Positions 6,009 to 28,321 of a stretch of DNA of 64,000 bases are shown piece after piece. Each line of letters begins with the position of its first letter. Position 1 is the first letter of the stretch. The position numbers and the translations under genes were made by a program. The notes beneath the pieces were generated by a model. That model was not told the origin of the DNA. It made no database searches and worked only from the letters and a program-made list of their open reading frames with translations. The stretch is from positions 229,996 to 293,995 of the forward strand of contig JAQUNP010000001.1 in assembly GCA_028717565.1 (NCBI GenBank). Direction: 5' to 3'. The stretch is from Patescibacteria group bacterium (GTDB lineage: Bacteria; Patescibacteriota; Kazan-3B-28).

Positions 6009-9000
6009 CTATGGCTTCGGCGAACCGTCGCCGAAGTTGGTTAACCAATACCACAGATCGTAGCCGTTGACTAAGAAGTCACGATGCATATCGGCCAGAT
6101 AGGAGTCGGCATCCCAAGCCGCTAGGATAATATCTAAGTCGAGGCCATTGATTTGATTGTCGTGCCACGGAGTCGTGACTTGCTGTGCATTGATTTCGGG
6201 GGACAGGTCAGAGGCCTTGAGTTCATTAAAGGTCACATTGACTGTTGAGCTAGCCGAAGAAGTAGTGAATTGTTTGGTGGCCGCTAAGTGGTTTTTACCT
6301 TTAACCCACACGTCATAGGTTTTATTGGCGCGAAGATAGAACGGATTAGGTAGACCTTGCAGCAGCTCGTTGCCGTCACGGGAGTAGGCCTCATCGACTT
6401 CATAAGGTTCGACAGAGTTGGCCTCATGAATAGTTAACCAGATGCCTGGGTTGGTGACATTATCATAATCGTAATCGCGTGCCTCGACAGGTACCTTGAT
6501 GCCTAGATTGGTGATAGGCACCAGACCGTTTTCAAATGAAATCGGAGCCTTGACGGTAGTACCGGCAATTAAGGCAGTGGCTTCAGTTTTGTGAGCCGTA
6601 TTAGAGCTGACTCTAAAGACCACATGGCCACCATTACTGGTAGTAAATGTACTCGGATTATTTATGCCAGCGCCCGTGACATCGCGCAGAACATCCTGTG
6701 TTGAGTTAGTGGTACCAATGGTAACGGAAATACCATCCAGCGGGATGCCGTTATCATTTCTTACGGTCACCGTCACAGTCGAGTAGGCGCTGCCATTGGC
6801 TGGCACACGATACGGTGCCGCAGCAATATGACGATATCCCACGTCCTGGCCGGCGACTTTCTGCAATAACAAACTCTTTTGGGGCAGGAGCAGGGGTACG
6901 GCACTAGCAAAGACGTTGCCAATCTGACTACCTGGCACAAAGTTGGTGGTTAGTGTACCAGCTAAGCTCGTGACACCGTTGTAGCGAGTCAGATAATCCG
7001 CCGTGTGCTGACCAGCGAGTTTGAAAACAATCGGCCAGCCACCCATCGGTTTTAGAGTTTGACCATCAACCAAAGTAGCGGTTAGGATGACGTAATCACT
7101 GCCACCCACCTCCACAGTAGTTTTGTTAGCCGCCCACGTCAGCTGATATCTTTCGGTGTCAGCATTGTATTTGTTGATAGTTATTGGATTTGAGTACAAC
7201 CAGCCATAGGTAGGCAAGAGGGCCTTGGCACGAATCTCGACCGTGCCTACATTGGCATCGGCCACATAATGGCTATAGGCAATACCCAAGCCGTTGCTTT
7301 TATCAATAACCGGGTCTAGTGAGCCGGTGCCATCGGTAATGATGAAAGTCACATCCTGCTGAGGCACCACTTTGCCAGTGGGGTCAGTGAGGGTGGCAGT
7401 CAACAGAGAGGCGGCATATTGTCCAGGAATGATTTCGAGCTTATCCACTTCGCTAATCAACTCAAATTCGTAGACGTTGTCTTGCTTTATGATAGTGGTT
7501 GATCCTTCTACAAAGACGCCTTCCGTGGCATTTTCATACGTAGCCAAAATACTGGCTTCGATTGGTTCCACGCCGGCCTCTTCATTGTCGATGGTGTAGG
7601 TGAAGGTAAAACCGCCATGCTCGTCGGTAGTTACTTCTTTGGTGCTAAGAGTGCCTTGCTCCCGTTCATCTTGGAAGTGAATATCCACAACGGCGTCAGC
7701 TACTGGGATAATACCACCCGTGCCAACATCAAACCGAGCTAAGATGCCCGTAATAGTAGATTTTTCCAGACCGTTCCGTAGCAAAGCATTGGGGCTGGCA
7801 GTCATATCAATGGCATAACCACTGCTGGAGACGATTGTAAAATCATAGTGACCCGGATATTCAGCATGTTCGGTATAGGACTTGTCGACAAAGGTTTCGA
7901 CGTAGATATCCCAGTAACCAATCTTGGCACTGGCCGGGATAGAGGTTTCCACTACGAGTTGATTCGCACTGAGCACGTTGATCTTGGCAGGATCAGTTAT
8001 ATCAAAACCGTCCGTACCGGGATTCTTGTTATTAGGACTGGGCCGGAAATGAACTGTAGTTCTGTCCTTAGGCGCGACCGTATCAAAGTTGGTGTTAGTA
8101 CCAGTGATAGTAATGTTAAGTGTATCGCCACGATCGCTTGTACGCGGGACAACGCTGGCTAGATACGGGCCAGTGTTTTCGCCTGGTAGTACGGTAAAGA
8201 AAGTGGTTAGACGTTCCGTATAGGCAAAGCCCGTGTCGGTCACGGCAGGGGAGAGAGTAGTAACTCTCCAAATTCCTACAGGAGCCAAGCTGCCAATTTT
8301 TATATCAAAGGTTAGAACCTGTGAGTTCTGATTAATTTCTAAGTTCTCAACCTCAATTGTGCTGATACCTCCAGCCAAGTGATTATAAATTTCCCGACGA
8401 TCGGAGACAAAGTAACCATCAACTTGGGCATGGGCAATTATAAAATCGTAGCCAGGATTATTGGACTCATACCAAACCTCGCGGCAGGCCTCGCCATCAC
8501 CATAAGTACAGCTGGTTGGTGTGGTGTCGATAGTACCGCCGTTGGTAGCAATAAACTGGACGCTGCCACCGTATGTATCGGTAATATTAATCGGGTTGCC
8601 ATCTTGGCCAGTTTCATAAACTCTTACTTTAATAATGGAACGGGTAGTGTTTTCGTCTAACTCTTTGGGATCAACGCTGATGATGCTTAATGAATACGGG
8701 CTGACCGGCTCGATTGCGCGTAACCAAACATGGGCGTCATAATCAACACCAGCATAGGTAGTAGCGCCGACGATTTCGACCATGCCAGCATCCTCCGCAA
8801 CCGGTGCTCGATAGGTAATAGTGGCGATACCACTGGAATTGGTCGGGTAAGTCAATATATCCGGTGGCGAGAAATGGCCAGCGCCGGTGACAATTTCAAA
8901 AGTGATAGGTTGGCCGGCAATGGCGTTACCCTCGTCGTCAACAAATTTGGCAGAAACGGTTTTGGTAGATTGGCCATCCGCCACCACTTGATCGTCGCCC

Positions 9001-12000
9001 GAACTGTAAAGAGCGAGCTGTGATGGTTCATCGAAGAACACCGTGGTCTCGAGACCAAAATGCGAATCGGTACCGGCTATCTGCACATCGTAAATGGTCT
9101 GGCCTTGTTCGCCTTCATCGGGTTCGATGCGTATACCACCCGCATCCGGCACTCCAGCGGAGAACGGCCCCATGTATTGGGTAACTGAAGAACCAATGCC
9201 GCCGTATTGATACACCACACGCGATGGGTTTTCGGTTAAATTAACCGCCGTCAGTCCAGCTGTGGGGAAGCTAGAGGTTAAGTTGACTGGCATTTCAGCC
9301 ATAATTTGCCAACTTTGGCTAAAGGCATCGCCAACCGGAACGTACATGGTGGTTTCAGGGTGGAATTGGAAGCGAATCCACTCTATTTCCTCACCGGGGT
9401 CGCCACCACTTGCTCCTTCGCCAAAAGTTTCGCCCGTGGCTTCGGCAATATTTGGATACATTGGCACATGCGGATCAAGCAAGAAGATCTCGGAGTCGGC
9501 AGGAATGGTGCTGTCATAGCGGTTGTAGGTATTTTTTTGTTGGAAGTCACTTTGTCCACCATGAACCAACACGCCCCCATCCAAGCCAGTAGCAAAGTTG
9601 TTGTAAACCGGAATTGGTTCATGCTCCCCATCATGAATATCACGATAGTCGGCATCGACTTGCCAACCATTGGTCCATTTTTCAGTGCTAGCCGAGGCCT
9701 CAACCTCAATGCGAATGACATCTGTATCGTAAAGTGGACCACCAGTAGTCGGAATCCGATAGGCATAGACCTCCATCACTTCAACATCGTTGGCAATGTT
9801 TCGCAAACCTCCGACGGCGATGAAGTCGTCACCGCTGGGCGTGTAGGAAGCCAGGCCAAAGAAGGCACGACCATGCGCAACTCCGCTCTCCTTGAAGGCA
9901 TATTTAGCATCCAGTTTACTGCGACTATTTGCCAGTCCGGTTACCGGAGTGGTGCCCGACCAATAAGTATTATTAGCCGCCAGTCGGTAGGCCACATTAC
10001 CAACGAATTTATAGTTGAGGGATTTACCGAAGTCCATAACTGGCATACCAAATGGCTTATTGGATCCATCTGGTAGTTTCGACGTAGTATAAAACGGATG
10101 GATGACATCATCTATAACCCAAAAAGTTTTTACTCGGTAGTTATCAACCCGAGCCGTCTGAACATCTGGAGAGATGGGTTGTGGATCGGACGGCCAAGGC
10201 GGGAAGTGAGTAAAGTAGGTTTTGGCAAGCTTGCCGATATGGCTCACCTCCAAGCTCTTAAACCAGCTGGCACCGCCCAGCACTAGAATCTCTCCGGCTT
10301 GGGTTTTTATAACCTCATGTCCATAGCGACCTTGCGGCACTGGCACAATAGAGTAGACCGTTTCTGTCACAGCGTCGGGAGATTCAATGTAGGTGGGCGA
10401 GCCACCACCGGTAACATACCACTGTGGGGTGGTAGTAACTTGGTTGGCTTGAGCCATAAAGCGCAAGTGACCTAAGTGCATTACTCGATTGACCGCCCAC
10501 ACGTCACTCAACTGACCGATATAGTCACTTTCCAGTTCACGTTCAATTGAACCACTGGCAGTCGCGCTAGCGGTTTTGACAATATAGTGTTCACCCACAG
10601 TGGTGACGAAATCACCTGAAAGCAGGGCGTCGCGCAAAAGGGGAGCGAGGTCGATACTGGACTTGATTTTAAATTCATCAGTCATAGCCAAAACATCACC
10701 CATGTGGCTGGGGTGTAAACTGACCATGCGAATAGTAGCATGTTCCGAATAAACATCCGACGGAACCGCCCAAGCCAACTGCTGCGCGGTGACGTTCACG
10801 ATATTGTTGGTGCCTACTTTGTACCAGACTGGGTTGTCATCCAACTTTTTGACTGCATATTCCAACTGGACCGCAAAGCTTTCTTGGGTCGGGACGTTGG
10901 TGTACCAACGAATAGCATAGTTGCTGCCCGGTTCGATGACGGCTGGTTCTTGTTCGCCAGTTTCAGTGTTGAACGGTACAGGCGCACTAAATAATACCCA
11001 GGGCTGACCCCGGTCAGAAACTTGAAAAGTATTAGACAATGACCGTGTCTCTTGCGGATAGTAGTTTACCAACCAAGGATAAGGAGGGACTAAGGTTAAT
11101 CTGAATTGGACTTCGTAAGTAGTCCCGTCAGTTCCAAAGGTTTGCCAGGTATAGCCACCTCGCCCTGCGGGAACCTCGGTGACAAACTGCCAATCCGTCC
11201 AAGTGGTGTTGCCCACAGCACGCCTTTTGTATTCAACCTTTACCGTGCTGTTGGCACCATGAGAGTCCCAAGTGATTCTCTGGCTAGTGTATTCCGACCG
11301 ATCAGTTAGATTCTGCGCGGCTTGAATCCAGTACTCGGGCTTCAAAAGCACTGTGACAGTGTCCACATGTGCACCTGTACATTCAGGATCAATTTCAAAT
11401 TTACCAGTTTCAGGATTGAGACGGTAAGCGGATTGGTCACACAACTTAATGTCAGCCAGAATGTCGTTGCCATGGCCAACATAGGTACCACCCGAGTAAC
11501 TTCCCACGCGCCAAGCATATTTACCGTCGTTCTCTGTACGAGCACTGATAGTTTGCCATTCGGACCAGTAATTATCATCTTCAGGGGGTGGATCGTCGAA
11601 ACTAAACTCACCGCTGTCTTCGTCCAAAATGCGAATAAACAGAGCTGCGAATTGAGTCGCCTGTGGCTCCCAGGTTATGTCATAGTAATCACCAATCTGG
11701 AGTTCTTCCAGTTTTTGTCCGACTGGTTTGCTGGGATCAAAGTCGCGCGGCGTGATGATGCCTAGGTTACTTTGGGCGAAGGCCTTGGTTACAAAATTTT
11801 TCAACCTCATCGCCAGATTGACCATGGTGGTGCTCAATGATTTGTTGAGACCGGCCTCGGCGGCAGCCACGTCGGCAGCCCTGAGCGTATCGATTAGTGT
11901 TTGTCGCGTAGTGTTGATGCCCACATTTAAGCCCCGGTCAGTGGCCAGCTGCTGCAGCTGGTCGGTAGTCATCGAGTCGTACTCATCCGTGGTGGTAGTG

Positions 12001-12911
12001 CTGGTCGTAGAGACAACTGCACTGGTAGATGTGTGATAAGAAACCGTTGTGCCTTGATTGATAGTGGAGCCCACCGTGCCCCCAGGAAGATAGAGTTGGC
12101 TACCAATCGAACCGCCTGGGCCGATGACACGTTTGGTGCTTAAATTCAGCTCCTGCCACTGGCTGCTACCCCAGTCCACAATGCTTTGTAGGGGGTCGCC
12201 ATCCACGCCGACTGGCAGATCGAATGGATAACCATAAACACCACCCATAATATGCAAATCGGTACCGACCGAGATTACTTCTGGATAATAGTTCACACCA
12301 GTCAGCAAGGCGTACACCTTCCAACCGGATTCAATATTGGTTAGGTCCAGACGTTCGATAGTGGAATAAAAGAGTCCGATCTTGTCTGGCTCTTCGGGCG
12401 GAGTATGCATATCACCTGCCACCACGTATAAGAAATTGCCCACTCTCTCGACACCAAACTCCATGTGACCGAAGTTCAGATCGGGGACTTGTTTCCAGTC
12501 AACAAAATTGTTGGTACCGGGTTTAGTTTGGATTAAGCCAGTTTGGTTATCTACCTCGATTCTTTGAACAGAGTTAGACGCCACCCATTCGGTTTGGCCA
12601 TTAATGTAATTGTACCTGGCATCGCCGCCGCCAATAACATAAAGCCAGGTTTGGCCACCCTGTTCTAGTTGGACCAGTTTGGCATGTGCCCGTTTTTCGC
12701 CACCAGTATTCTCAACTTGTTCCCAGGTTTTGTCTAAATCGACAGGCAAAATACCGGCTCGGCTGCCAAAGAGAGAGAAGAGATTGCTAATTTGAGTAGA
12801 GAAAAACACTGCTCCAAACAGCACAAACAGCCCGACAACAAAAATAATCAGGCGTGAGCGGTTCCTAGGGACATCTAACCACTCAAAGAATTGTTCTCTC
12901 CAATTAGACAT
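6009..12911 (-). CDS. giant (2300 aa) N-terminally anchored surface protein: Kelch-like beta-propeller blades, HeH/SAP-like motif, many Ig-like (Big_1-type) repeats, dockerin-like duplicated C-terminal segment
   Basis: A single uninterrupted ORF. TM helix at residues ~20-40. Repeated blade signatures (LYVIGGG, LYVVAGD, LHIMGGV, ILVLGGA, FIAVGGL, VLVHGGQ, YQYGGIG). Invasin-like repeats, e.g. DGQSTKTVSAKFVDDEGNAIAGQPITFEIV. C-terminus DNQINGLDLDIILAAW / DFLVNGYDLWYWL. Confidence 0.9.
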   Translation of the reverse strand: MSNWREQFFEWLDVPRNRSRLIIFVVGLFVLFGAVFFSTQISNLFSLFGSRAGILPVDLDKTWEQVENTGGEKRAHAKLVQLEQGGQTWLYVIGGGDARYNYINGQTEWVASNSVQRIEVDNQTGLIQTKPGTNNFVDWKQVPDLNFGHMEFGVERVGNFLYVVAGDMHTPPEEPDKIGLFYSTIERLDLTNIESGWKVYALLTGVNYYPEVISVGTDLHIMGGVYGYPFDLPVGVDGDPLQSIVDWGSSQWQELNLSTKRVIGPGGSIGSQLYLPGGTVGSTINQGTTVSYHTSTSAVVSTTSTTTTDEYDSMTTDQLQQLATDRGLNVGINTTRQTLIDTLRAADVAAAEAGLNKSLSTTMVNLAMRLKNFVTKAFAQSNLGIITPRDFDPSKPVGQKLEELQIGDYYDITWEPQATQFAALFIRILDEDSGEFSFDDPPPEDDNYWSEWQTISARTENDGKYAWRVGSYSGGTYVGHGNDILADIKLCDQSAYRLNPETGKFEIDPECTGAHVDTVTVLLKPEYWIQAAQNLTDRSEYTSQRITWDSHGANSTVKVEYKRRAVGNTTWTDWQFVTEVPAGRGGYTWQTFGTDGTTYEVQFRLTLVPPYPWLVNYYPQETRSLSNTFQVSDRGQPWVLFSAPVPFNTETGEQEPAVIEPGSNYAIRWYTNVPTQESFAVQLEYAVKKLDDNPVWYKVGTNNIVNVTAQQLAWAVPSDVYSEHATIRMVSLHPSHMGDVLAMTDEFKIKSSIDLAPLLRDALLSGDFVTTVGEHYIVKTASATASGSIERELESDYIGQLSDVWAVNRVMHLGHLRFMAQANQVTTTPQWYVTGGGSPTYIESPDAVTETVYSIVPVPQGRYGHEVIKTQAGEILVLGGASWFKSLEVSHIGKLAKTYFTHFPPWPSDPQPISPDVQTARVDNYRVKTFWVIDDVIHPFYTTSKLPDGSNKPFGMPVMDFGKSLNYKFVGNVAYRLAANNTYWSGTTPVTGLANSRSKLDAKYAFKESGVAHGRAFFGLASYTPSGDDFIAVGGLRNIANDVEVMEVYAYRIPTTGGPLYDTDVIRIEVEASASTEKWTNGWQVDADYRDIHDGEHEPIPVYNNFATGLDGGVLVHGGQSDFQQKNTYNRYDSTIPADSEIFLLDPHVPMYPNIAEATGETFGEGASGGDPGEEIEWIRFQFHPETTMYVPVGDAFSQSWQIMAEMPVNLTSSFPTAGLTAVNLTENPSRVVYQYGGIGSSVTQYMGPFSAGVPDAGGIRIEPDEGEQGQTIYDVQIAGTDSHFGLETTVFFDEPSQLALYSSGDDQVVADGQSTKTVSAKFVDDEGNAIAGQPITFEIVTGAGHFSPPDILTYPTNSSGIATITYRAPVAEDAGMVEIVGATTYAGVDYDAHVWLRAIEPVSPYSLSIISVDPKELDENTTRSIIKVRVYETGQDGNPINITDTYGGSVQFIATNGGTIDTTPTSCTYGDGEACREVWYESNNPGYDFIIAHAQVDGYFVSDRREIYNHLAGGISTIEVENLEINQNSQVLTFDIKIGSLAPVGIWRVTTLSPAVTDTGFAYTERLTTFFTVLPGENTGPYLASVVPRTSDRGDTLNITITGTNTNFDTVAPKDRTTVHFRPSPNNKNPGTDGFDITDPAKINVLSANQLVVETSIPASAKIGYWDIYVETFVDKSYTEHAEYPGHYDFTIVSSSGYAIDMTASPNALLRNGLEKSTITGILARFDVGTGGIIPVADAVVDIHFQDEREQGTLSTKEVTTDEHGGFTFTYTIDNEEAGVEPIEASILATYENATEGVFVEGSTTIIKQDNVYEFELISEVDKLEIIPGQYAASLLTATLTDPTGKVVPQQDVTFIITDGTGSLDPVIDKSNGLGIAYSHYVADANVGTVEIRAKALLPTYGWLYSNPITINKYNADTERYQLTWAANKTTVEVGGSDYVILTATLVDGQTLKPMGGWPIVFKLAGQHTADYLTRYNGVTSLAGTLTTNFVPGSQIGNVFASAVPLLLPQKSLLLQKVAGQDVGYRHIAAAPYRVPANGSAYSTVTVTVRNDNGIPLDGISVTIGTTNSTQDVLRDVTGAGINNPSTFTTSNGGHVVFRVSSNTAHKTEATALIAGTTVKAPISFENGLVPITNLGIKVPVEARDYDYDNVTNPGIWLTIHEANSVEPYEVDEAYSRDGNELLQGLPNPFYLRANKTYDVWVKGKNHLAATKQFTTSSASSTVNVTFNELKASDLSPEINAQQVTTPWHDNQINGLDLDIILAAWDADSYLADMHRDFLVNGYDLWYWLTNFGDGSPKP

Positions 12912-12984: not shown

Positions 12985-13013
12985 ATTATACTATTTTTTT
13001 AGTATTTTGTCAA
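12985..13013 (-). promoter_or_regulatory. consensus promoter of the giant gene
   Basis: TTGACA(13013-13008)-17 nt-TATAAT(12990-12985). The ~70-nt leader has a 9-bp hairpin TTCTTGTAA/TTACAAGAA and no obvious SD at the ATG. Confidence 0.7.
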
Positions 13014-13021
13014 GGGGTAGT

Positions 13022-14086
13022 TTACTCGACCCCTAGTTCCTCTAAAGTCGCCCGCTGAATGTCGCTGCCCGCGCCAGTTCCCGTGCTGGCAGTACCGCTG
13101 GTATCATCTTGGTCCGGCATATAATAGCCAGTGATAACTTCACGGATGTAATCCTCATCAGCGACCATGAAGGCGAGAGGGGTATCAAACTGTGCGGCCA
13201 GTTCGCCCATTCTTTCGGGTGACGGCTCAGCAATAGCTACGGTCAAGGCCTCGCCGGAACGGGCGATTGGCACTGCCATGTATTTCACTGCGGTATCATA
13301 CGACATTTCCTGTACCACACCAGGATCAATTTGATAGCGAGAGAGGTCAATGGAGGGAATATGGTACTGATTGCCTAGTGCTCGAATCAGCTCTTCGCGA
13401 GAAATAAGTTCTTTGTCCAATAAGATCTTGCCTAAACGCTGGCCACTACTGTGTTGTTCACGCAAGGCCATAGTTAGGTCTTGGTGCGAGATTGAACCTT
13501 GCGCGACTAAAATCTCACCCAGAGTTTGCGTTGGCTTCATAGTTTTGACTGTCATCTCTCCCGTTCCAGAAGCAGGGTGGGTAGATTCGCTGTAATCAGA
13601 AATGACTTGGGCCCATTTTCTGGCATTGGGGATAGACCGCAACTCAAAGAAACTTTCCTTCCCCGCGGATTGTACCTTTATATCACCGAAACCGAACACC
13701 GAAGCCCAGGTGCCTTGGATGGTAAAACGCACGTCTTGAATCTGGGAAAACGGAATTTGAGAAATCCGACGGTTGAAAAGAGTAACTAGTTGAATATCAA
13801 TTAAGCGTTCCTGGGTAAGTATCCATGCATCCATATACCAGAAAATCCACTGCATCATGAAGAAACTGATAACAAAGACAATATATAATCCACCAAACAT
13901 CCAAGCGCCGGCTTCGACTAAAGGATCCTCAGTCAGCCCTAGTGCGTTAACGCCAATTGCGCCTAAAGCCATTGGCAACAACATGGCCACAGACCATCCA
14001 AAGGGCGCTAGCAAGTTTAAAACATGCCGACGTAGGGTCTTCTCAATACGCTCCTTGGTGGCAAATTGTGAGTCAGAGTACGCCAT
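13022..14086 (-). CDS. membrane bPH (YdbS/YdbT-like) domain protein fused to a T2SSE_N/MshEN-type domain
   Basis: 354 aa: 2 TM helices, then a PH-like region (ILTQERLIDIQ...IQDVRFTIQG...FGFGDIKVQSAG). Two 24-residue motifs, TLGEILVAQGSISHQDLTMALREQ and RLGKILLDKELISREELIRALGNQ, are separated by 5 residues. Confidence 0.8.
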   Translation of the reverse strand: MAYSDSQFATKERIEKTLRRHVLNLLAPFGWSVAMLLPMALGAIGVNALGLTEDPLVEAGAWMFGGLYIVFVISFFMMQWIFWYMDAWILTQERLIDIQLVTLFNRRISQIPFSQIQDVRFTIQGTWASVFGFGDIKVQSAGKESFFELRSIPNARKWAQVISDYSESTHPASGTGEMTVKTMKPTQTLGEILVAQGSISHQDLTMALREQHSSGQRLGKILLDKELISREELIRALGNQYHIPSIDLSRYQIDPGVVQEMSYDTAVKYMAVPIARSGEALTVAIAEPSPERMGELAAQFDTPLAFMVADEDYIREVITGYYMPDQDDTSGTASTGTGAGSDIQRATLEELGVE

Positions 14087-14089
14087 GTC

Positions 14090-14290
14090 TTATACGTTAT
14101 AGGCCACGATACCAGCGATGAGAGAAAACCCTGCTATCGTCACCACCAGAGCCAGATAAATAAATAGAACGATTAAAGATTTGTCGGCTGGATCTTTGAT
14201 ACGGAAGCGAAAGACATGAAATATGTTAATACCGACGTACGTAGCCGCCATTAAAGCCAAGATAATGTATGTAATAATCAGGCCTGTCAT
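14090..14290 (-). CDS. hypothetical 2-TM small membrane protein (66 aa)
   Basis: ORF track; its ATG overlaps the ruvB stop (ATGA). Confidence 0.5.
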
Positions 14291-15303
14291 GATTGAAACA
14301 GCCGTGGGCTGTCCTGTGTAAGACCCAGATGCATACGAGCCTTGTCGGTAACTAGGCGCCCTTGAGCCGTCCGTATAAGATAACCTTCCTGGATCAAATA
14401 CGGCTCATAAACGTCTTCCAAAGTTTGGCTTTCCTCTGAAATAGCTGCTGCCAGAGCCCGTAATCCTACTGGGCCCCCATTAAATTGATTAATAATGATC
14501 GTGATGATGCGCCTGTCAATTTCGTCTAACCCTACCATATCTATGGTCATTAAGTCAAGGGCTTCCTTGACCGTAGCGATGGTGATCTGACCACCATTCT
14601 TGACCAAAGCGAAGTCCCGTACACGTTTGAGAATGCGGTTGGCCGTCCGTGGAGTACGCCGAGAGGCATGGGCCAGTACGTCGATGCATTCTTCATTTAG
14701 GATTATCCCTAGAAGTTTGGCGGAGCGCTTGATGATAGCTTGGATATCTTCGACATCGTAAAAGTCCAACCGAAAAATAGAACCGAAACGATCGCGTAGG
14801 GGAGAAGACAGCAGCCCAGCTCGCGTGGTCGCGCCAATCAGAGTGAACTTGGGTAGGTCGATTTTGATTGAACGAGCCGACGGCCCCTTGCCCACAATAA
14901 TATCAAGTGCATAATCCTCCATGGCCGTGTAGAGCACTTCTTCAATCGGTCGGCTTAAACGATGGATTTCGTCAATAAACAAGATGTCACCGTCTTTGAG
15001 ATTGGTTAAAATCGCTGCCAAATCACCAGCTCGCTCAATCGCAGGGCCGGAAGTAGTTTTAAATCCTACTCCCATTTCTTTGGCGATGATGTTGGCCAGA
15101 GTCGTTTTGCCCAAACCCGGAGGGCCAAATAGCAAAATGTGGTCTAGCGCCGCCGAGCGCTGCTGGGCAGATGCGATAGCAATCTGAATCGCGGCCTTGG
15201 TATTGGTTTGACCAATATAGCTAGCAAAACTCTGCGGACGCAGGTTTTGGTCTAGGAGCTCGTCATCTTCTGAGATGTGGGGGTCAACAACTCGAGTTTG
15301 CAT
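14287..15303 (-). CDS. ruvB: Holliday junction branch migration helicase RuvB
   Basis: Walker [16 protein letters not shown], RuvB winged-helix C-terminus. I prefer ATG 15303 (AAGGA just upstream, 7 nt after the previous stop) over the track's GTG at 15333. Confidence 0.95.
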
Positions 15304-15310
15304 ATCCTTA

Positions 15311-15781
15311 TTATAACGAAAGAAGCGCGACACCCCCCAGTGTCGCAGCCGCAGAAATAATCACGGACAGAAAAATGCCTATTAATAACAAGATGGCGGA
15401 GTGGTGCAGCTTGATGCCAAACAGATACGCCAGAAGTGCACCTGTCCATGCCCCAGAGAAGGGCAAGGGAATCGCAACAAAAATCGTTAAAGCCACCGTG
15501 CCCCAGCGTTCAAATTTCTGAGAATGGCGATGATACGTAGTATGAAAAATGGCGGCAAAGAACTTGTCGATAGCCGGATGCCAAGTCCGCACCCAGCTCG
15601 TTAGATATGTCAGCCCCAATAAGATCGCAAAAGCCGTAACAAAGCTCACTACAGTGGCTATCAACATAACCCAAATTGGTGGCAACCCAAGTGAGATGCC
15701 CAGAATCACTGCACCCCGTGCTTCGATAATTGGCATGATGCTGGCCAGCATGACACTCTGATAGTCGGCGATAAACTCCAT
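15311..15781 (-). CDS. small integral membrane protein, COG2426 / putative small multidrug export family
   Basis: 156 aa, 4-5 TM. Starts ...[11 protein letters not shown]; [10 protein letters not shown] segment typical of that family. Confidence 0.7.
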
Positions 15782-16593: not shown

Positions 16594-18495
16594 CTATATT
16601 ACATTAATAGTCCAACTAAAAGTTGGGCCAAACCAAGTTATGTATTCGGATACCAACTGGAAGGTTTCTGTGTAAACGCCTGTCTGGCTCGGCGCGAACA
16701 CTTCAACCGCAAGAGTTATAGAACTACCAGGCGGAACATTGAAGCCACCGGTCAAAACGCGATTAGGACTTAGCCAGGTGGGGAGATAAAAGATGCTTTT
16801 ACGATCATGGGGGAGGGCAGTGCCCAGTTTGACGACGCCGGTATTTGAACCGGATTGGCTGCCTAGCCAAGTAGCCGTTCCGGTGTTTTTCAACGTAACA
16901 GACAATAAGACCTTTTCACCCGGACTGGCTACCAATGGACTATTAATTTGTTCGACGTTGGCCTGGTAGGCCACTGGGCTAACAACCGTACCAGACGCCC
17001 CCCCAGTCCCAGTGACAGTGACATCCCAATAGATGCCCAAGTCATTCAGCCAGGTGACTCCCTCGGCCACAACACTAAAATACTCCCTGAAATTGCCAGG
17101 TTGACTTGCGGATATGGTAAAGGTAAAGCGACCAGTTTCGCCCGGCTGGACTACAGCCGGGGACATAGTAGCAGCCCGATTCGAGCTTAACCAACTAGTG
17201 TGATATAAGCTACTCGCTCGATCTTTGGGTCGGTCAGTGCCTAAACGCACTTGACCCATATCGGTTGCCGACTGGACTTGGCTGACCCACGTAGCGGCAC
17301 CAGCATTTTTGAGCTCTACCCACAAAGTAGTTTGCTCACCAACCGCCAGAGTCGGATAGGCACTCTGACCGAGCCATTGCATCCGATAATCAGCGGGGTT
17401 AGAGCTAACTGTAGCTGACGCGACTTGAGTCCCAGCCTGCCCCAGCGCCGCCCAAGCATCAGCGCGTCCGGAACCAAAGAAAATACTTTGGCCGCTACCT
17501 AGCGGAAACGCAGTCGTAGTCATTAAATGCTGGATCTGACTAGGCGAAAGTGCTGGATTCTTTGCCAACAACAAAGACACTATGCCAGTCACTTGTGCAG
17601 AGGCAAAAGACGAGCCAGCTCCATCAACATAATCCTGGCTGCCTAGACCCGCCATCACGATATTCTCACCTGGGGCGACTATGTCCATATTGCTACCATA
17701 GTTTGAAAAGGCAGACAGTTGATTTTGGGCATTAATTGAACCGACGGCAATCACTTGAGGATATCGCGCTGGGTAAAAAATTTCGCCACTGCTATTGTTG
17801 CCAACCGCCGCCACTATCGACACCCCATGCGAGATGGCATAAGTAACGGCTTCGGATAATACCGCTGCATCTGAATTTGAACCAAAGCTCATGTTAATAA
17901 CTGAGGCACCATTGTCCACGGCATAGCGGATGGCTTCAGCCACATCCCAAAAATCGCCTCCGCCCAAATTGTCCAAGGCCTTTAGTGCCATAATGCGCGC
18001 CGACCAATTGATGCCAGCCAGACCCAATTGATTGTTGGTGTTAGCCGCTATGATACTAGCGATGCCAGTCCCGTGGCCATGGCCGTCATTAATATCGGAG
18101 TTGCGATTATAAAAATTGTATCCGAGATAATCATCGACATATCCATTGTGATCATCATCCATTCCGTTATCGGGGATCTCGTCACTATTAACCCAGAGAC
18201 GATTTGTTAAATCTTGATGGTTCCTATTGATTCCAGTATCGATGACTGCCACCGTTGAGGGTGAGCCAGTAGCCAAACTCCAGGCCTGATCAATTTTTAA
18301 TGTACGGAGTGAGACCTGCTGAGGGAAGTAGGGATCGTTGGGGTTGACGGTTTGGATACGAACGGGAGTCGGTTGAATTTGCCCCAAGATTTGTCCAGCA
18401 ATATAAACGTCCGACTCTGACGAAGCCAAGGTCGGCGAAATACCCGCGCAGGTGAAGGGCAGCAATATCGCGACTAGGACAAGCATTTTTCGCAT
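16594..18495 (-). CDS. secreted subtilisin-like (S8) serine peptidase with two C-terminal NBR1-type Ig-like repeats
   Basis: 633 aa; signal peptide; catalytic triad contexts AVIDTG, HGHGTG, GSSFASAQVTG; two ~120-aa repeats homologous to the N-domain of the L,D-transpeptidase at 47243. Confidence 0.9.
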   Translation of the reverse strand: MRKMLVLVAILLPFTCAGISPTLASSESDVYIAGQILGQIQPTPVRIQTVNPNDPYFPQQVSLRTLKIDQAWSLATGSPSTVAVIDTGINRNHQDLTNRLWVNSDEIPDNGMDDDHNGYVDDYLGYNFYNRNSDINDGHGHGTGIASIIAANTNNQLGLAGINWSARIMALKALDNLGGGDFWDVAEAIRYAVDNGASVINMSFGSNSDAAVLSEAVTYAISHGVSIVAAVGNNSSGEIFYPARYPQVIAVGSINAQNQLSAFSNYGSNMDIVAPGENIVMAGLGSQDYVDGAGSSFASAQVTGIVSLLLAKNPALSPSQIQHLMTTTAFPLGSGQSIFFGSGRADAWAALGQAGTQVASATVSSNPADYRMQWLGQSAYPTLAVGEQTTLWVELKNAGAATWVSQVQSATDMGQVRLGTDRPKDRASSLYHTSWLSSNRAATMSPAVVQPGETGRFTFTISASQPGNFREYFSVVAEGVTWLNDLGIYWDVTVTGTGGASGTVVSPVAYQANVEQINSPLVASPGEKVLLSVTLKNTGTATWLGSQSGSNTGVVKLGTALPHDRKSIFYLPTWLSPNRVLTGGFNVPPGSSITLAVEVFAPSQTGVYTETFQLVSEYITWFGPTFSWTINVI

Positions 18496-26149: not shown

Positions 26150-26224
26150 TGGTAGCCCGTAGGGGAGTCGAACCCCTGTTTCAAGCTTGAAAAGCTTGCG
26201 TCCTAACCGTTAGACGAACGGGCC
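26150..26224 (-). tRNA. tRNA-Glu (anticodon UUC), CCA encoded
   Basis: GGCCCGTTCGTCTAACGGTTAGGAC... Anticodon arm CAAGC-TTTTCAA-GCTTG. T arm GGGGTTCGACTCCCC. G1-U72 wobble. Confidence 0.92.
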
Positions 26225-26265
26225 CTATGAGTCGACCGACTCTTCGGGCTCAAGACCTTAAGCCA

Positions 26266-26327
26266 GTGCAGTGGGATTTGAACCCTTGGTCAATTCTGCT
26301 AAATAGCAGAATGGCTGCTTAACTGCC
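26266..26327 (-). pseudogene. decayed tRNA-like fragment (T-arm-like GGGTTCAAATCCC, abnormal anticodon-like hairpin, no D arm)
   Basis: Minus strand GGCAGTTAAGCAGCCATTCTGCTATTTAGCAGAATTGACCAAGGGTTCAAATCCCACTGCAC. Only a 3-bp T stem and a 5/7 acceptor pairing. The anticodon-like hairpin has a 6-nt (or 8-nt) loop. Confidence 0.4.
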
Positions 26328-26331
26328 AGGG

Positions 26332-26403
26332 TGGGCGCAGAAGGATTCGAACCTTCGGCCAATCGCTTAAGAGGCGACTGCTCTACCGCTGAGCTATGCG
26401 CCC
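26332..26403 (-). tRNA. tRNA-Lys (anticodon CUU), 3' CCA not encoded (ACCC)
   Basis: GGGCGCATAGCTCAGCGGTAGAGCA; anticodon arm GTCGC-CTCTTAA-GCGAT; T arm GAAGGTTCGAATCCTTC; TGCGCCC-A. Flanks extend the acceptor helix by 8 bp. Confidence 0.92.
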
Positions 26404-26410
26404 ACCCTGA

Positions 26411-26445
26411 CTGTTAAGCCTTCCCACCGCTTTAGCTATGTGCCC
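26411..26445 (-). pseudogene. degenerate duplicate of the 5' half of tRNA-Lys(CUU)
   Basis: Minus strand GGGCACATAGCTAAAGCGGTGGGAAGGCTTAACAG aligns to GGGCGCATAGCTCAGCGGTAGAGCAGTCGCCTCTTAAGCG of the intact gene just downstream. Confidence 0.5.
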
Positions 26446-26459
26446 AGGTTGTTAATTAC

Positions 26460-26536
26460 TGGCGTCCCCGGGAGGACTCGAACCTCCGACCTTTGGTACC
26501 GGAAACCAACGCTCTAATCCGCTGAGCTACGGGGAC
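26460..26536 (-). tRNA. tRNA-Arg (anticodon CCG), CCA encoded
   Basis: GTCCCCGTAGCTCAGCGGATTAGAGC; anticodon arm TTGGT-TTCCGGT-ACCAA; T arm GGAGGTTCGAGTCCTCC; CGGGGAC-G-CCA. Confidence 0.92.
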
Positions 26537-26578
26537 ATTGTAGCGGTTTAATTCAAACAATGTCTAGGCCAAGCCTAC

Positions 26579-26654
26579 TGGGGTGGACGATGGGATTCGA
26601 ACCCACGACCGCTCGGACCACAACCGAGAGCTCTACCGCTGAGCTACGTCCACC
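26579..26654 (-). tRNA. tRNA-His (anticodon GUG) with encoded G-1, CCA encoded
   Basis: G-GTGGACGTAGCTCAGCGGTAGAGC; anticodon arm CTCGG-TTGTGGT-CCGAG; T arm GTGGGTTCGAATCCCAT; CGTCCAC-C-CCA. The extra 5' G opposite C73 is the His identity element. Confidence 0.93.
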
Positions 26655-26665
26655 ATGAAACATCT

Positions 26666-26741
26666 TGGCACCCCGGGCAGGACTCGAACCTGCGACGCTC
26701 GGTTTAGAAAACCGATGCTCTATCCACTGAGCTACCGGGGC
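26666..26741 (-). tRNA. tRNA-Arg (anticodon UCU), CCA encoded
   Basis: GCCCCGGTAGCTCAGTGGATAGAGC; anticodon arm TCGGT-TTTCTAA-ACCGA; T arm GCAGGTTCGAGTCCTGC; CCGGGGT-G-CCA. Confidence 0.92.
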
Positions 26742-26854
26742 AAACAGTAAAAGTAATTAGTTTAAGATACATCACCAATTTAGCACAAGCAATACAAAAA
26801 ATCCTTAAAGCGGCTAGATCGCATAGGGACACTGGCGAGCAACGAATTGTGTTC

Positions 26855-27244
26855 TTAGCAGAGAGGGGAGTGGGCCTGGTGACGTTTTAAGGCGGCGTCA
26901 ATTTCTGATTTAGTCATGACAAAGAACTGCAGAAAGCCGAGTTGCGAGACGGTCAAATGTTTAAAAATCTGTTTTGACTGATTTTCTACCCGGAGTTCTC
27001 GCCAGCTAGGGTAAAGTTCGTGTAAGAGTTCGTGTACCAGAGTAATCACGCGATCATTTATACCGATATTTTTGTTGATATAAATCCTGAGCTCATCTGG
27101 AGCAATGTAGCCCTTGGCTTCACGAAATCTAACATATTCGCCCTTGGCCACAACCATTTTGGCACTTAAAACCACCTCATAACCAGAGTGGAGGAGGGCA
27201 TCTTTAATCTTTTCGAAAATGTAGCGAGTTGCTTGTTTGGTCAC
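26855..27244 (-). CDS. hypothetical small HExxH protein (possible ImmA/IrrE- or SprT-like metallopeptidase fold)
   Basis: 129 aa, GTG start. Single HExxH (LVHELLHELYP). Own consensus promoter. Confidence 0.55.
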   Translation of the reverse strand: MTKQATRYIFEKIKDALLHSGYEVVLSAKMVVAKGEYVRFREAKGYIAPDELRIYINKNIGINDRVITLVHELLHELYPSWRELRVENQSKQIFKHLTVSQLGFLQFFVMTKSEIDAALKRHQAHSPLC

Positions 27245-27302
27245 TTCTTTTTGTTTTTATTTTGCGAGGGATGATGAGGGGAACTTCCCGACTCATTAGT
27301 AA

Positions 27303-27331
27303 ATTATATCACAAAAAAACCGGTGTGTCAA
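27303..27331 (-). promoter_or_regulatory. consensus promoter of the HExxH gene
   Basis: TTGACA(27331-27326)-17 nt-TATAAT(27308-27303). Confidence 0.65.
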
Positions 27332-27392
27332 GTACATAAAATTGGCTCCAGATATACCAAACTACCTTCTTAGGATAGAAAGGGCTGGGAGT

Positions 27393-27468
27393 TGGAGCGG
27401 GTAACGGGAATCGAACCCGTATCTTCTGCTTGGAAGGCAGATATAATAAGCCGTTATACTATACCCGC
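27393..27468 (-). tRNA. tRNA-Gly (anticodon UCC), CCA encoded
   Basis: GCGGGTATAGTATAACGGCTTATTATA; anticodon arm TCTGC-CTTCCAA-GCAGA; T arm ACGGGTTCGATTCCCGT; TACCCGC-T-CCA. D loop unusually long (11 nt). Confidence 0.9.
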
Positions 27469-27928: not shown

Positions 27929-28321
27929 TTATCTTCCTCGGGCTAACCAGTTCTCAAGTATAACGGCGGCAGAGACCGCATCAATATCGGCCCGCGTATG
28001 CTCGACCATCCGGAGACGGTGGGCAGCTGTATGGCTGGTTAGGCGCTCATCCTCTAGGATAACGGGGAGGTCCAGCTTGGTTTTTATCTTCTCAACCACT
28101 TCTTTGACACGAGAAGCTTGCTCTCCCTCGTGCCCCGCTAAAGTGAGTGGTAAACCGACTATCAGCTTTTTAATATCATGCTGTGAAACGAGTTTTTTGA
28201 GCTCATTAACAAACAGCCGGTTATGCCTCAGGGTCAAAAGAGGGGAGGGAATATCAACCTGCGTATCAACAATCGCTACCCCAATGCGCCGGTCGCCAAT
28301 ATCTAGTCCTAGTATTTTCAT
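27929..28321 (-). CDS. ruvX: Holliday junction resolvase-like / pre-16S rRNA nuclease RuvX (YqgF)
   Basis: MKILGLDIGDRRIGVAI start; 130 aa. Confidence 0.9.
   Translation of the reverse strand: MKILGLDIGDRRIGVAIVDTQVDIPSPLLTLRHNRLFVNELKKLVSQHDIKKLIVGLPLTLAGHEGEQASRVKEVVEKIKTKLDLPVILEDERLTSHTAAHRLRMVEHTRADIDAVSAAVILENWLARGR

What the first reader, a model, noticed from the sequence alone, without database searches (positions are those of the whole stretch)
13367..13525. Tandem MshEN-type (c-di-GMP receptor) motif pair fused to a membrane bPH domain, immediately upstream of the giant surface-protein gene
Residues 188-211 (TLGEILVAQGSISHQDLTMALREQ) and 217-240 (RLGKILLDKELISREELIRALGNQ) of the 354-aa protein both fit the 24-residue pattern I recall for the MshEN/T2SSE_N c-di-GMP-binding domain: RLGxxLLxxGLLxxxxLxxALxxQ. 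They are separated by exactly 5 residues, as in characterised MshEN domains. The domain is not attached to a secretion ATPase here. It follows a 2-TM bacterial PH (YdbS/YdbT-like) module. The gene is the last in a ruvB / 66-aa TM ORF / bPH-MshEN string and ends 110 nt before the giant gene. This suggests a membrane-bound cyclic-dinucleotide sensor that could gate display or function of the adhesin. That link is inferred from adjacency only. I see no GGDEF, EAL or HD-GYP protein in this window.
Basis: partly seen in the sequence, partly recalled or inferred. Interest (0 to 1): 0.65.

Follow-up and report, generated by a model that had tools for sequence, protein, structure and literature searches.

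The report
Membrane-anchored c-di-GMP receptor in Patescibacteria
A small membrane protein of an ultra-small (Patescibacteria/Kazan-type) bacterium really does carry an almost intact cyclic-di-GMP-binding MshEN domain on a YdbS-like membrane PH module, but its conserved genetic partners are ruvB and a tiny membrane protein, not the giant surface-protein gene next door.

Summary
ORF 13022-14086 (-) encodes a 354-aa protein made of a 2-TM hairpin, a bPH_2 domain and a complete MshEN domain. Residues 188-240 (nt 13367-13525) match NCBI's 53-residue c-di-GMP motif model (57.2 bits, cutoff 38). The AF2 model superposes on c-di-GMP-bound V. cholerae MshE (TM 0.91, rmsd 1.4 Å).

Eleven of the 12 key residues are kept, with T188 replacing the first Arg. 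The ten Leu/Gly/Gln ligand contacts are near-invariant in 22 relatives (entropy 0.19 vs 1.52 bits).

The family is confined to Kazan-type and a few other Patescibacteria-like lineages. I found no published description of the bPH_2-MshEN architecture.

The adhesin link is weak:
- The giant gene follows in all 13 Kazan-type loci, but the whole block is syntenic there.
- It has its own conserved consensus sigma-70 promoter in the 110-nt spacer.
- It is absent in two divergent bPH-MshEN lineages and in a stand-alone bPH homologue, all of which keep ruvB and a small 2-TM ORF directly upstream.

The gene is therefore the last of a translationally coupled ruvB/small-TM/bPH-MshEN operon. No GGDEF, EAL or HD-GYP protein was found in the sequence available. 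Whole-genome cyclase content and actual ligand binding remain untested.

The parts
13022..14086 (-). Gene for the 354-aa bPH_2-MshEN membrane protein (identical to NCBI MDD5605955.1, 'PH domain-containing protein [Patescibacteria group bacterium]')
   Evidence: ORF list; Pfam and NCBIfam hits; exact match P0001
13832..14023 (-). Residues 22-85: two-helix transmembrane hairpin. The N-terminus is basic (predicted cytoplasmic), and only about 6 residues are exposed outside between the helices.
   Evidence: Kyte-Doolittle windows above 1.5 at residues 22-52 and 55-87; AF2 helices 22-48 and 55-85 with pLDDT 90-94
13583..13831 (-). Residues 86-168: bacterial PH domain (bPH_2 / PHb2, YdbS-like)
   Evidence: PF03703, 31.8 bits against GA 22; AF2 beta-sandwich plus C-terminal helix; Foldseek hits to bacterial PH structures 3dcx and 3hsa, E about 2e-4
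13367..13525 (-). Residues 188-240: MshEN_N four-helix subdomain, i.e. two 24-residue c-di-GMP-type motifs with a 5-residue spacer
   Evidence: NF053729, 57.2 bits against cutoff 38; residue mapping to MshE R9..Q61 from the phmmer alignment 186-315 <-> 7-138; conservation analysis
13115..13366 (-). Residues 241-324: MshEN_C (T2SSE_N1-like) alpha/beta subdomain, followed by a disordered acidic tail (residues 325-354)
   Evidence: PF05157 hit at residues 241-324; AF2 secondary structure and pLDDT; Foldseek to 5htl over 138 columns
14090..14290 (-). 66-aa two-TM ORF, always immediately upstream of the bPH(-MshEN) gene. It belongs to no known family.
   Evidence: A small ORF of 58-88 aa is present in 17 of the 18 related locus records by ORF search, and in the 18th (L021) by its gene call; weak alignment A4; no Pfam family; ATGA overlap with ruvB and 3-nt gap to the bPH gene
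14287..15333 (-). ruvB, the first recognisable gene of the tightly packed ruvB / small TM / bPH-MshEN unit
   Evidence: tblastn 54-71% identity to the RuvB genes upstream of every homologue; Pfam RuvB_N/AAA/WHD_RuvB in the related loci
12985..13013 (-). Consensus sigma-70-type promoter (TTGACA-17-TATAAT, 12/12) inside the 110-nt spacer, driving the giant gene
   Evidence: Promoter scan; the same element at 11-12 of 12 positions in 6 of 7 relatives
6009..12911 (-). Neighbouring 2300-aa N-terminally anchored surface protein (Big_1 x4). It is adjacent, but a functional link is not established.
   Evidence: Pfam Big_1/Invasin_D3; orthologous N-terminal tail, TM and 'FSxQIxNLFxLFGSRA' region in relatives; adjacency statistics

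Best explanation
The gene encodes a cytoplasm-facing, membrane-tethered second-messenger receptor. A YdbS-like module (2-TM hairpin plus one bPH_2 domain) has acquired a complete MshEN domain at its C-terminus.

Shown:
- Domain identity, fold and topology.
- Near-complete retention of the c-di-GMP contact residues, which are under strong purifying selection.
- Membership of a small Patescibacteria-restricted family.
- Position as the last cistron of a translationally coupled ruvB / small 2-TM ORF / bPH-MshEN operon.
- Independent transcription of the downstream giant gene.

Inferred:
- One c-di-GMP molecule binds between the two 24-residue motifs, as in MshE and PilF GSPII-B.
- Binding reorients MshEN_N against MshEN_C.
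- This changes either the packing or oligomerisation of the bPH/TM module with its small TM partner, or the recruitment of a cytoplasmic partner by the N1-like MshEN_C subdomain. Either way it would switch a membrane/envelope process.

The MshEN part is an add-on regulatory layer. Related lineages have the same ruvB-small TM-bPH cassette without MshEN, or with MshEN_C only. The output process is unknown. Control of the adjacent giant surface protein is one possibility, but nothing beyond lineage-wide synteny favours it.
For: - **Domain calls.** PF05157, PF03703 and NF053729 are all above their curated cutoffs.
- **Sequence homology to proven c-di-GMP binders.** PilB, PilF and MshE are hit at E 1e-14 to 1e-23.
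- **Structure.** The AF2 model has pLDDT 82-93 across most of the MshEN domain. Its best structural matches are the c-di-GMP-bound forms, 5htl_B (TMt 0.91, rmsd 1.4 Å) and PilF GSPII-B holo structures (TMt about 0.87). These score ahead of apo PilF and the non-binder XpsE at 0.60-0.71.
- **Key residues.** L189, G190, L204, L208, Q211, R217, L218, G219, L233, L237 and Q240 are kept. G11 and G40 are the residues whose mutation abolishes binding in MshE, whereas Arg mutations change Kd less than 5-fold (PMC5013675). PilF GSPII-B binds at 6 nM with K and L in place of both Arg, and GSPII-C binds with P at that position (PMC11731258), so T188 is not disqualifying.
- **Selection.** The ten contact residues have mean entropy 0.19 bits against 1.52 for the other 43 positions, permutation p<1e-5. 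Both Gly and both Gln are invariant in 22 sequences at 42-81% identity.
- **Family-wide motif.** 16 of 19 diverse members hit NF053729.
- **Operon structure.** ATGA overlap and a 3-nt gap.
- **Cassette conservation.** The ruvB-small TM-bPH order is conserved in all 18 loci examined, including lineages only 27-32% identical.
- **Parallel architecture.** bPH_2 plus cNMP_binding proteins occur in Chloroflexi, P0032 and P0033.
- **Second candidate receptor.** A protein of the family NCBI names 'YajQ family cyclic di-GMP-binding protein' lies in the same window at 49237-49731, 191.5 bits against cutoff 146.
Against: - No diguanylate cyclase, EAL or HD-GYP domain was found among the ORFs scanned in the 64-kb window or among the genes called in about 7 kb beyond it and in the related loci. 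A crude six-frame motif scan of 455 kb found none either.
- No c-di-GMP riboswitch was found.
- Whether these roughly 0.6-0.7-Mb genomes make c-di-GMP at all is unknown.
- Position 1 of both motifs is variable within the family: T/Q/R/S/K/H/L/P in motif I and R/Q/K/L/P in motif II. The turn Gly of motif II is E226 here.
- Thr at position 1 has not been tested experimentally.
- The Leu residues are also structural, so part of their conservation would be expected without any ligand.
- Some family members have a degenerate motif I (P0043, P0048) or lack MshEN_N altogether (P0041, P0053, P0066). The protein's core function therefore does not require the nucleotide site.
Confidence: 0.6

Rival explanations
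1. The bPH-MshEN protein senses cytoplasmic c-di-GMP and gates display, anchoring or release of the adjacent N-terminally anchored giant surface protein, possibly together with the conserved upstream S8 peptidase.
For: - The giant ORF follows the bPH-MshEN gene in 13 of 13 distinct Kazan-type loci, down to about 34-36% identity of the sensor.
- The giant proteins are orthologous at their short cytoplasmic tail, TM segment and juxtamembrane segment, while their lengths vary from 1622 to 2662 aa for complete ORFs.
- An S8 (mycosin-like) peptidase is conserved four genes upstream of the sensor in the annotated Kazan-type loci that extend that far.
Against: - The giant gene has its own conserved consensus promoter.
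- The whole region is syntenic in these genomes, so adjacency carries little information.
- Two independent divergent bPH-MshEN lineages and a stand-alone bPH homologue keep ruvB and the small TM ORF but have no giant gene.
- The sensor exposes only about 6 residues outside the membrane, so it has no LapD-like periplasmic output domain.
Confidence: 0.12
2. The MshEN domain here is mainly a protein-protein docking module, with T2SSE_N1-like MshEN_C binding an actin-fold partner of the GspL/PilM type. It would tether a pilus, competence or division component to the membrane. The motif pair would be a structural relic, or would bind a different ligand such as cGAMP, pGpG or a host-derived dinucleotide, in an organism that makes no c-di-GMP.
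For: - MshEN_C is retained in family members that lost MshEN_N: P0041, P0053 and P0066.
- MshEN_C equals the N1 domain that contacts EpsL in type II secretion (supplement of PMC5013675).
- MshE also binds cGAMP, weakly.
- No cyclase was seen in any sequence available.
- An FtsA/PilM-like actin-fold protein is encoded at 29959-31221.
Against: - Both Gln residues (Q211, Q240) are invariant, and in MshE they only contact the ligand's ribose and phosphate. Both position-3 Gly are also invariant. Neither is easily explained without a nucleotide ligand.
- Non-binding homologues such as XpsE have lost exactly these residues.
- The model resembles holo rather than apo or non-binder structures.
Confidence: 0.22
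3. The motif pair is a chance resemblance in a helical, Leu-rich region.
For: Three positions deviate from the strict consensus.
Against: HMM E-values of 1e-12 to 1e-18 from three independent libraries; a structural match at rmsd 1.4 Å; family-wide conservation.
Confidence: 0.01

Closest known systems
MshEN domain of Vibrio cholerae MshE (PDB 5HTL) and the GSPII-B domain of Thermus thermophilus PilF (PDB 8PDK)
   Same: - The same two-subdomain fold: a four-helix MshEN_N plus an alpha/beta MshEN_C.
- The same 24+5+24-residue motif layout.
- Conserved Leu triads, position-3 Gly and terminal Gln.
- About 30-32% identity over 138 columns.
   Different: - It is not attached to a T2SS/T4P ATPase.
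- It lies C-terminal to a membrane anchor instead of at the N-terminus of a soluble ATPase.
- Thr replaces Arg/Lys at position 1 of motif I, and Glu replaces the turn Gly of motif II.
- Ligand binding is untested.
NfrB (c-di-GMP-activated glycosyltransferase with a C-terminal MshEN domain; NF008411)
   Same: It is an inner-membrane protein carrying a C-terminal cytoplasmic MshEN domain as regulatory input. The window protein aligns to NfrB residues 478-617. This precedent shows that MshEN can control a membrane-embedded effector.
   Different: There is no glycosyltransferase domain. The membrane part is a 2-TM bPH_2 module of unknown activity.
YdbS / DdE-type 2-TM PHb2 membrane proteins (Bacillus subtilis YdbS; Enterococcus DdE/DdF, required for export of the leaderless bacteriocin EntDD14, PMC8657885)
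   Same: The N-terminal half has the same layout of two TM helices plus one PHb2/bPH_2 domain. Stand-alone homologues of about 180-200 aa exist in related lineages in the same ruvB-small TM context.
   Different: - It carries an extra MshEN domain.
- It is paired with a 58-88-aa non-PH TM protein rather than a YdbT-like 3xPH protein.
- There is no bacteriocin locus.
LapD-LapG-LapA inside-out control of a giant adhesin (Pseudomonas; from my own knowledge)
   Same: A membrane c-di-GMP receptor encoded next to a giant surface protein.
   Different: - No degenerate GGDEF-EAL receptor.
- No periplasmic output domain.
- No LapG-type protease.
- The adhesin is separately transcribed, and the adjacency is lost in divergent family members.
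bPH_2 + cNMP_binding proteins of Chloroflexi (P0032, P0033)
   Same: A bPH_2 membrane module fused to a cyclic-nucleotide-binding domain. This is the same design logic with a different messenger.
   Different: The sensor domain is different (PF00027). The proteins are about 590 aa and come from a different phylum.

Membership tests
MshEN / T2SSE_N domain (PF05157) | Profile HMM score above Pfam gathering threshold | tested here: met
   47.9 bits against 23.1, residues 241-324
MshEN c-di-GMP-binding motif (NF053729) | 53-residue motif model above the NCBI cutoff | tested here: met
   57.2 bits against 38, residues 189-240, model positions 2-53 of 53; 16 of 19 diverse family members also match
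MshEN c-di-GMP-binding motif | Two 24-residue motifs joined by a 5-residue spacer | tested here: met
   Residues 188-211, HSSGQ, 217-240, read directly; definition from PMC5013675
MshEN c-di-GMP-binding motif | Gly at position 3 of both motifs (backbone NH to guanine O6/N7; G11 or G40 mutation abolishes binding) | tested here: met
   G190 and G219, invariant in 22 relatives; requirement
MshEN c-di-GMP-binding motif | Leu at position 2 and the LxxxL pair of each motif (hydrophobic triads stacking on the guanines), plus a terminal Gln | tested here: met
   L189, L204, L208, Q211 and L218, L233, L237, Q240; mean entropy 0.19 bits
MshEN c-di-GMP-binding motif | Arg (extended consensus: R/K/L) at position 1 of each motif | tested here: not met
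   Motif I has T188; motif II has R217. The residue is variable in the family. The literature shows this position is tolerant: less than 5-fold effect in MshE, and K, L or P in the PilF domains that bind. Thr itself is untested.
MshEN c-di-GMP-binding motif | Turn Gly between the helices (G18/G47 of MshE) | tested here: inconclusive
   G197 is present. The second is E226, and the family shows G/N/E/K/D/Q/R there. AF2 still predicts the helix-turn-helix.
MshEN domain | Four-helix N-subdomain plus alpha/beta C-subdomain fold | tested here: met
   Foldseek 5htl_B TMt 0.91, rmsd 1.4 Å over 138 columns; model pLDDT 82-93 across most of the domain
MshEN c-di-GMP receptor | Specific binding of c-di-GMP | not testable with these tools
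   Needs ITC, DRaCALA or DSF on the purified domain
c-di-GMP signalling system | A diguanylate cyclase (GGDEF) encoded in the same genome | tested here: inconclusive
   None was found among the scanned ORFs of the 64-kb window or the called genes about 7 kb beyond it and in the syntenic loci of relatives. The rest of the 359-kb contig and the complete Kazan genome CP011216.1 could not be read with the tools.
bPH_2 (PF03703; YdbS-like) | Profile score above GA, a PH fold, and two TM helices preceding it | tested here: met
   31.8 bits against 22; Foldseek 3dcx/3hsa; TM hairpin
GspE/PilB/MshE secretion ATPases | T2SSE ATPase domain (PF00437) | tested here: not met
   No PF00437 hit, and the protein ends about 30 residues after MshEN. 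The NCBI label 'type IV-A pilus assembly ATPase PilB' on homologue P0007 is therefore a misnomer.
LapD-type inside-out adhesin control | Periplasmic output domain, degenerate GGDEF-EAL receptor, cognate protease, and linkage with the adhesin across lineages | tested here: not met
   The extracytoplasmic loop is only about 6 residues and there is no GGDEF/EAL. The adhesin has its own promoter. Adjacency is lost in P0052, P0057 and P0210.

The most novel reading that the evidence does not exclude
Ultra-small Patescibacteria (Kazan-type) run a minimal cyclic-dinucleotide circuit. In it, a bPH-MshEN membrane receptor, working with its 66-aa TM partner, relays c-di-GMP (self-made or taken from the host) to the cell envelope and so controls anchoring or display of the neighbouring giant Big_1 surface protein used for host attachment. 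This would be a LapD-independent form of inside-out adhesin control. It would be built on a ruvB-linked membrane cassette that is conserved in at least four lineages with Patescibacteria-type gene neighbourhoods.
Probability: 0.1. Interest if true: 0.75.

Novelty: new variant of a known kind. Interest (0 to 1): 0.45.

Why it matters
MshEN is an established high-affinity c-di-GMP receptor. It has been characterised almost only on secretion/pilus ATPases and on NfrB. A membrane-tethered bPH_2-MshEN protein would add a new effector class. It would also give a first handle on cyclic-dinucleotide signalling in CPR/Patescibacteria, organisms with genomes of about 0.6-0.7 Mb in which second-messenger signalling has hardly been examined.

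It also offers an experimental entry point into the poorly understood bacterial PH (YdbS/YdbT) membrane proteins, because a fused ligand sensor implies a switchable activity. The conserved ruvB / small-TM / bPH cassette across divergent lineages is an unexplained gene linkage worth recording.

The practical consequence for this finding is negative: adjacency to the giant gene should not be read as a regulatory link.

Tried and rejected
- **Whole-genome search for cyclases.** Extending the window worked only on the right side: about 7 kb of glycosyltransferases, Wzy and H+-PPase with no GGDEF. The RNase Y look-up on the left side was not on record.
- **c-di-GMP riboswitches.** None in the window or in 7 related loci at Rfam gathering scores.
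- **Six-frame motif scan.** A crude scan for GG[DE]EF, HD-GYP, DAC and PilZ motifs over 455 kb gave no GG[DE]EF, HD-GYP or DAC match. It gave one chance PilZ-like pattern on the minus strand, at about plus-strand position 60.4 kb, within the DHH/DHHA1 ORF.
- **Hairpin in the giant gene's 5' UTR (TTCTTGTAA...TTACAAGAA).** Not better than shuffles, z = -1.25. Dropped.
- **afdb50 fold search for architecture relatives.** The library was unavailable.
- **Literature.** Searches on MshEN architectures, Patescibacteria or CPR with GGDEF/c-di-GMP, and Kazan found no description of bPH-MshEN and no cyclase census for Kazan. The supplement of PMC5013675 has no PH/YdbS/DUF304 entry among MshEN architectures.
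- **The small TM ORF as YajC or another known family.** No Pfam hit.
- **Split PilB.** I considered the protein as a detached N-terminal domain of PilB. It was rejected as a membership claim because there is no ATPase domain and no PilB gene in the neighbourhood. A trans-acting interaction cannot be excluded.
Full report
**Observation**

The ORF at 13022..14086 (-) encodes a 354-aa protein. Residues 188-240 correspond exactly to nt 13525..13367. Independent profile libraries recognise the region:
- NCBIfam NF053729 ('cyclic di-GMP-binding domain, MshE-related') covers residues 189-240 at 57.2 bits against a cutoff of 38, E=1.1e-15.
- Pfam MshEN PF05157 covers residues 241-324 at 47.9 bits against GA 23.1.
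- Pfam bPH_2 PF03703 covers residues 103-157 at 31.8 bits against GA 22.
- phmmer against PDB sequences finds PilF, PilB and MshE at E 4e-23 to 6e-14 over residues 185-323.

There is no T2SSE ATPase domain. Two hydrophobic helices (about 22-52 and 55-87) precede the PH domain. The basic N-terminus and the 6-residue inter-helix loop place the PH and MshEN domains in the cytoplasm. That topology is an inference from the positive-inside rule.

**Structure**

An AF2 model built on 22 family sequences has mean pLDDT 77.9. The TM hairpin scores 90-94 and most of the MshEN domain 82-93. In Foldseek against the PDB:
- The best match is c-di-GMP-bound MshE (5htl_B, TMt 0.91, rmsd 1.4 Å over 138 columns).
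- Next come the c-di-GMP-bound PilF GSPII-B crystal structures (TMt about 0.87).
- Apo PilF and the non-binder XpsE score lower, at 0.60-0.75.
- The PH part matches bacterial PH structures 3dcx and 3hsa.

**Is the nucleotide site intact?**

The phmmer alignment (186-315 <-> MshE 7-138) gives this mapping:

| MshE | Window protein |
|---|---|
| R9 | T188 |
| L10 | L189 |
| G11 | G190 |
| G18 | G197 |
| L25 | L204 |
| L29 | L208 |
| Q32 | Q211 |
| R38 | R217 |
| L39 | L218 |
| G40 | G219 |
| G47 | E226 |
| L54 | L233 |
| L58 | L237 |
| Q61 | Q240 |

According to Wang et al. 2016 (PMC5013675), the position-3 Gly residues are essential and the Leu residues contribute 10-36-fold. Arg, Asp and Gln substitutions changed affinity less than 5-fold.

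Neissner et al. 2024 (PMC11731258) showed that PilF GSPII-B binds c-di-GMP at 6 nM with Lys and Leu in place of both Arg. GSPII-C binds with Pro at that position. The single key-residue deviation here, T188, is therefore at the most tolerant position, although Thr itself is untested.

Across 22 family members at 42-81% identity, the ten Leu/Gly/Gln contact positions have mean entropy 0.19 bits against 1.52 bits for the other 43 motif positions (permutation p<1e-5). Both Gly and both Gln are invariant. The Gln residues only touch the ligand in MshE, so their invariance is the best indirect evidence for a nucleotide ligand.

**Family and distribution**

The protein is identical to NCBI MDD5605955.1, 'PH domain-containing protein [Patescibacteria group bacterium]', on a 359-kb contig.
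- About 30 close relatives exist, many labelled candidate division Kazan.
- Only 8 GTDB species genomes carry one, including the complete 602,646-bp Kazan genome CP011216.1.
- An exhaustive profile search of 1.84 billion representatives adds about 12 50%-identity clusters with the full bPH+MshEN architecture.
- It also finds many stand-alone homologues of the N-terminal half, about 180-200 aa.

Among the divergent members, most keep good motifs: P0044, P0045, P0046, P0049, P0052, P0055, P0057 and P0061. Two have a degenerate motif I (P0043, P0048). Three lack MshEN_N but keep MshEN_C (P0041, P0053, P0066). 16 of 19 members hit NF053729.

I found no published description of this architecture.

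**Genomic context**

In the window, ruvB's stop overlaps the start of the 66-aa ORF (ATGA). That ORF ends 3 nt before the bPH-MshEN start. The three genes therefore form one tightly coupled unit.

The arrangement ruvB - small ORF (58-88 aa, two TM helices, no known family) - bPH gene is present in all 18 loci examined. The small ORF was recovered by ORF search in 17 of them and by the gene call in L021. This includes three lineages outside the Kazan-type block:
- P0052: RuvA-RuvB-88 aa-bPH/MshEN, followed by convergent genes.
- P0057: RuvA-RuvB-QueH-73 aa-bPH/MshEN-QueA.
- The stand-alone bPH P0210: RuvB-73 aa-bPH-YebC-RuvC.

In L007 an insertion separates ruvB from the small ORF, but the small ORF stays with the bPH gene.

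The giant ORF follows the bPH-MshEN gene in 13 of 13 distinct Kazan-type loci, with complete ORFs of 1622-2662 aa. In those genomes, however, the whole block (S8 peptidase-BacA-Sm_multidrug_ex-RuvB-...-giant, then TsaD/TsaE-LTD where the locus reaches that far) is collinear. In the three other lineages there is no giant gene.

The 110-nt spacer contains a perfect TTGACA-17-TATAAT promoter at 13013..12985. The same element, at 11-12 of 12 positions, sits upstream of the giant gene in 6 of 7 relatives. The giant gene is thus an independently and probably strongly transcribed unit. Adjacency alone is weak evidence for a functional link.

**Second-messenger context**

Pfam scans of the non-nested window ORFs of at least 120 aa outside the syntenic ruvB-EamA block found no GGDEF, EAL, HD-GYP or DisA_N. 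The genes of that block were identified by synteny with Pfam-annotated relatives. Nothing was found in the loci of relatives, in about 7 kb beyond the right end, or in a crude six-frame motif scan of 455 kb. No c-di-GMP riboswitch was detected.

The window does encode two related proteins:
- A member of the family NCBI names 'YajQ family cyclic di-GMP-binding protein' at 49237-49731, 191.5 bits against cutoff 146.
- A DHH/DHHA1 NrnA-like phosphoesterase at 60027-61226.

Diguanylate cyclases have been reported in ultra-small groundwater MAGs in general (PMC9938205). I could not establish whether Kazan-type genomes have one. This is the main open point.

**Interpretation**

The most likely reading (confidence about 0.6) is a membrane-tethered, cytoplasm-facing c-di-GMP receptor. 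It was created by adding an MshEN domain to a YdbS-like 2-TM/bPH protein that belongs to an older ruvB-small TM-bPH cassette.

[quoted passage not shown] Two outcomes are possible, and neither is shown: a change in the state of the bPH/TM module with its small TM partner, or recruitment of a partner through the N1-like MshEN_C subdomain.

Functional precedents are:
- NfrB, a membrane glycosyltransferase switched by a C-terminal MshEN domain (PMC8669469, listed; alignment).
- bPH_2 plus cNMP_binding fusions in Chloroflexi.
- For the N-terminal half, YdbS/DdE-type proteins needed for export of a leaderless bacteriocin (PMC8657885).

A chance match is excluded.

**Verdict**

The sensor interpretation is plausible but unproven. 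The adhesin link is not supported beyond lineage synteny. This is a new domain architecture for a known receptor domain in a poorly studied phylum, and is of moderate interest.

Noticed in passing
window 49237-49731 (-): A 164-aa DUF520/YajQ protein passes NCBI's equivalog cutoff for 'YajQ family cyclic di-GMP-binding protein' (191.5 bits against 146). It is a second candidate c-di-GMP-binding protein in the same 64-kb window of a tiny genome.
   Followed up: partly
window 14090-14290 (-); L001 9804-9998, L016 9738-10004, L019 7771-7992, L022 5771-5992: A family-less 58-88-aa two-TM ORF always sits between ruvB and the bPH gene, often overlapping by 4 nt. The ruvB / small-TM / bPH cassette is conserved in lineages whose bPH proteins are only about 27-32% identical, and also where the bPH protein has no MshEN domain. 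I have no explanation for the ruvB linkage.
   Followed up: partly
window 12985-13013 (-): There is a perfect sigma-70 consensus promoter (TTGACA-17-TATAAT) in front of the giant gene. It is conserved as CTTGACA-N17-TATAAT in 6 of 7 relatives, which suggests very strong constitutive expression of the giant surface protein.
   Followed up: yes
window 13022-13048 (-), residues 346-354 of the bPH-MshEN protein: After a disordered acidic/Gly-Ser tail, the extreme C-terminus 'ATLEELGVE' is conserved as LE(D/E)LG(I/V/L)E in about half of the Kazan-type relatives (12 of 22 in alignment A1). It looks like a short linear docking motif.
   Followed up: no
window 16594-18495 (-): A 633-aa S8 peptidase resembles T7SS mycosin (205 bits, below the cutoff of 278). 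It is conserved four genes upstream of the sensor in the annotated Kazan-type loci that extend that far, and some orthologues carry Big_1 domains. It could process surface proteins.
   Followed up: no
window 6009-12911 (-), N-terminal 60 residues: The giant proteins of relatives vary in length (complete ORFs 1622-2662 aa). They share an orthologous N-terminus: an 18-residue cytoplasmic tail (W..PRNR.R in several), one TM helix, and an 'FSxQIxNLFxLFGSRA' juxtamembrane segment followed by Kelch-like repeats.
   Followed up: partly
homologue P0007 (L001 10001-11038): NCBI names this 345-aa orthologue 'type IV-A pilus assembly ATPase PilB'. It has no ATPase domain, so the name is an annotation artefact caused by the MshEN hit.
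   Followed up: yes
window 60027-61226 (-): A 399-aa DHH/DHHA1 protein gives a weak NrnA-like hit. It could degrade pGpG/pApA, the linear products of cyclic dinucleotide hydrolysis.
   Followed up: no
window 28321-31221 (-): A divergent FtsA/PilM-like actin-fold protein (420 aa) is followed by a 545-aa ORF with no Pfam or NCBIfam family.
   Followed up: no
L022 1324-4350: In the lineage with the stand-alone bPH homologue, a 1008-aa T2SSE-type ATPase with a faint MshEN hit lies immediately upstream of ruvB-small TM-bPH.
   Followed up: no
window 26150-27468 (-): There is a cluster of six tRNA genes (Glu, Lys, Arg, His, Arg, Gly).
   Followed up: no
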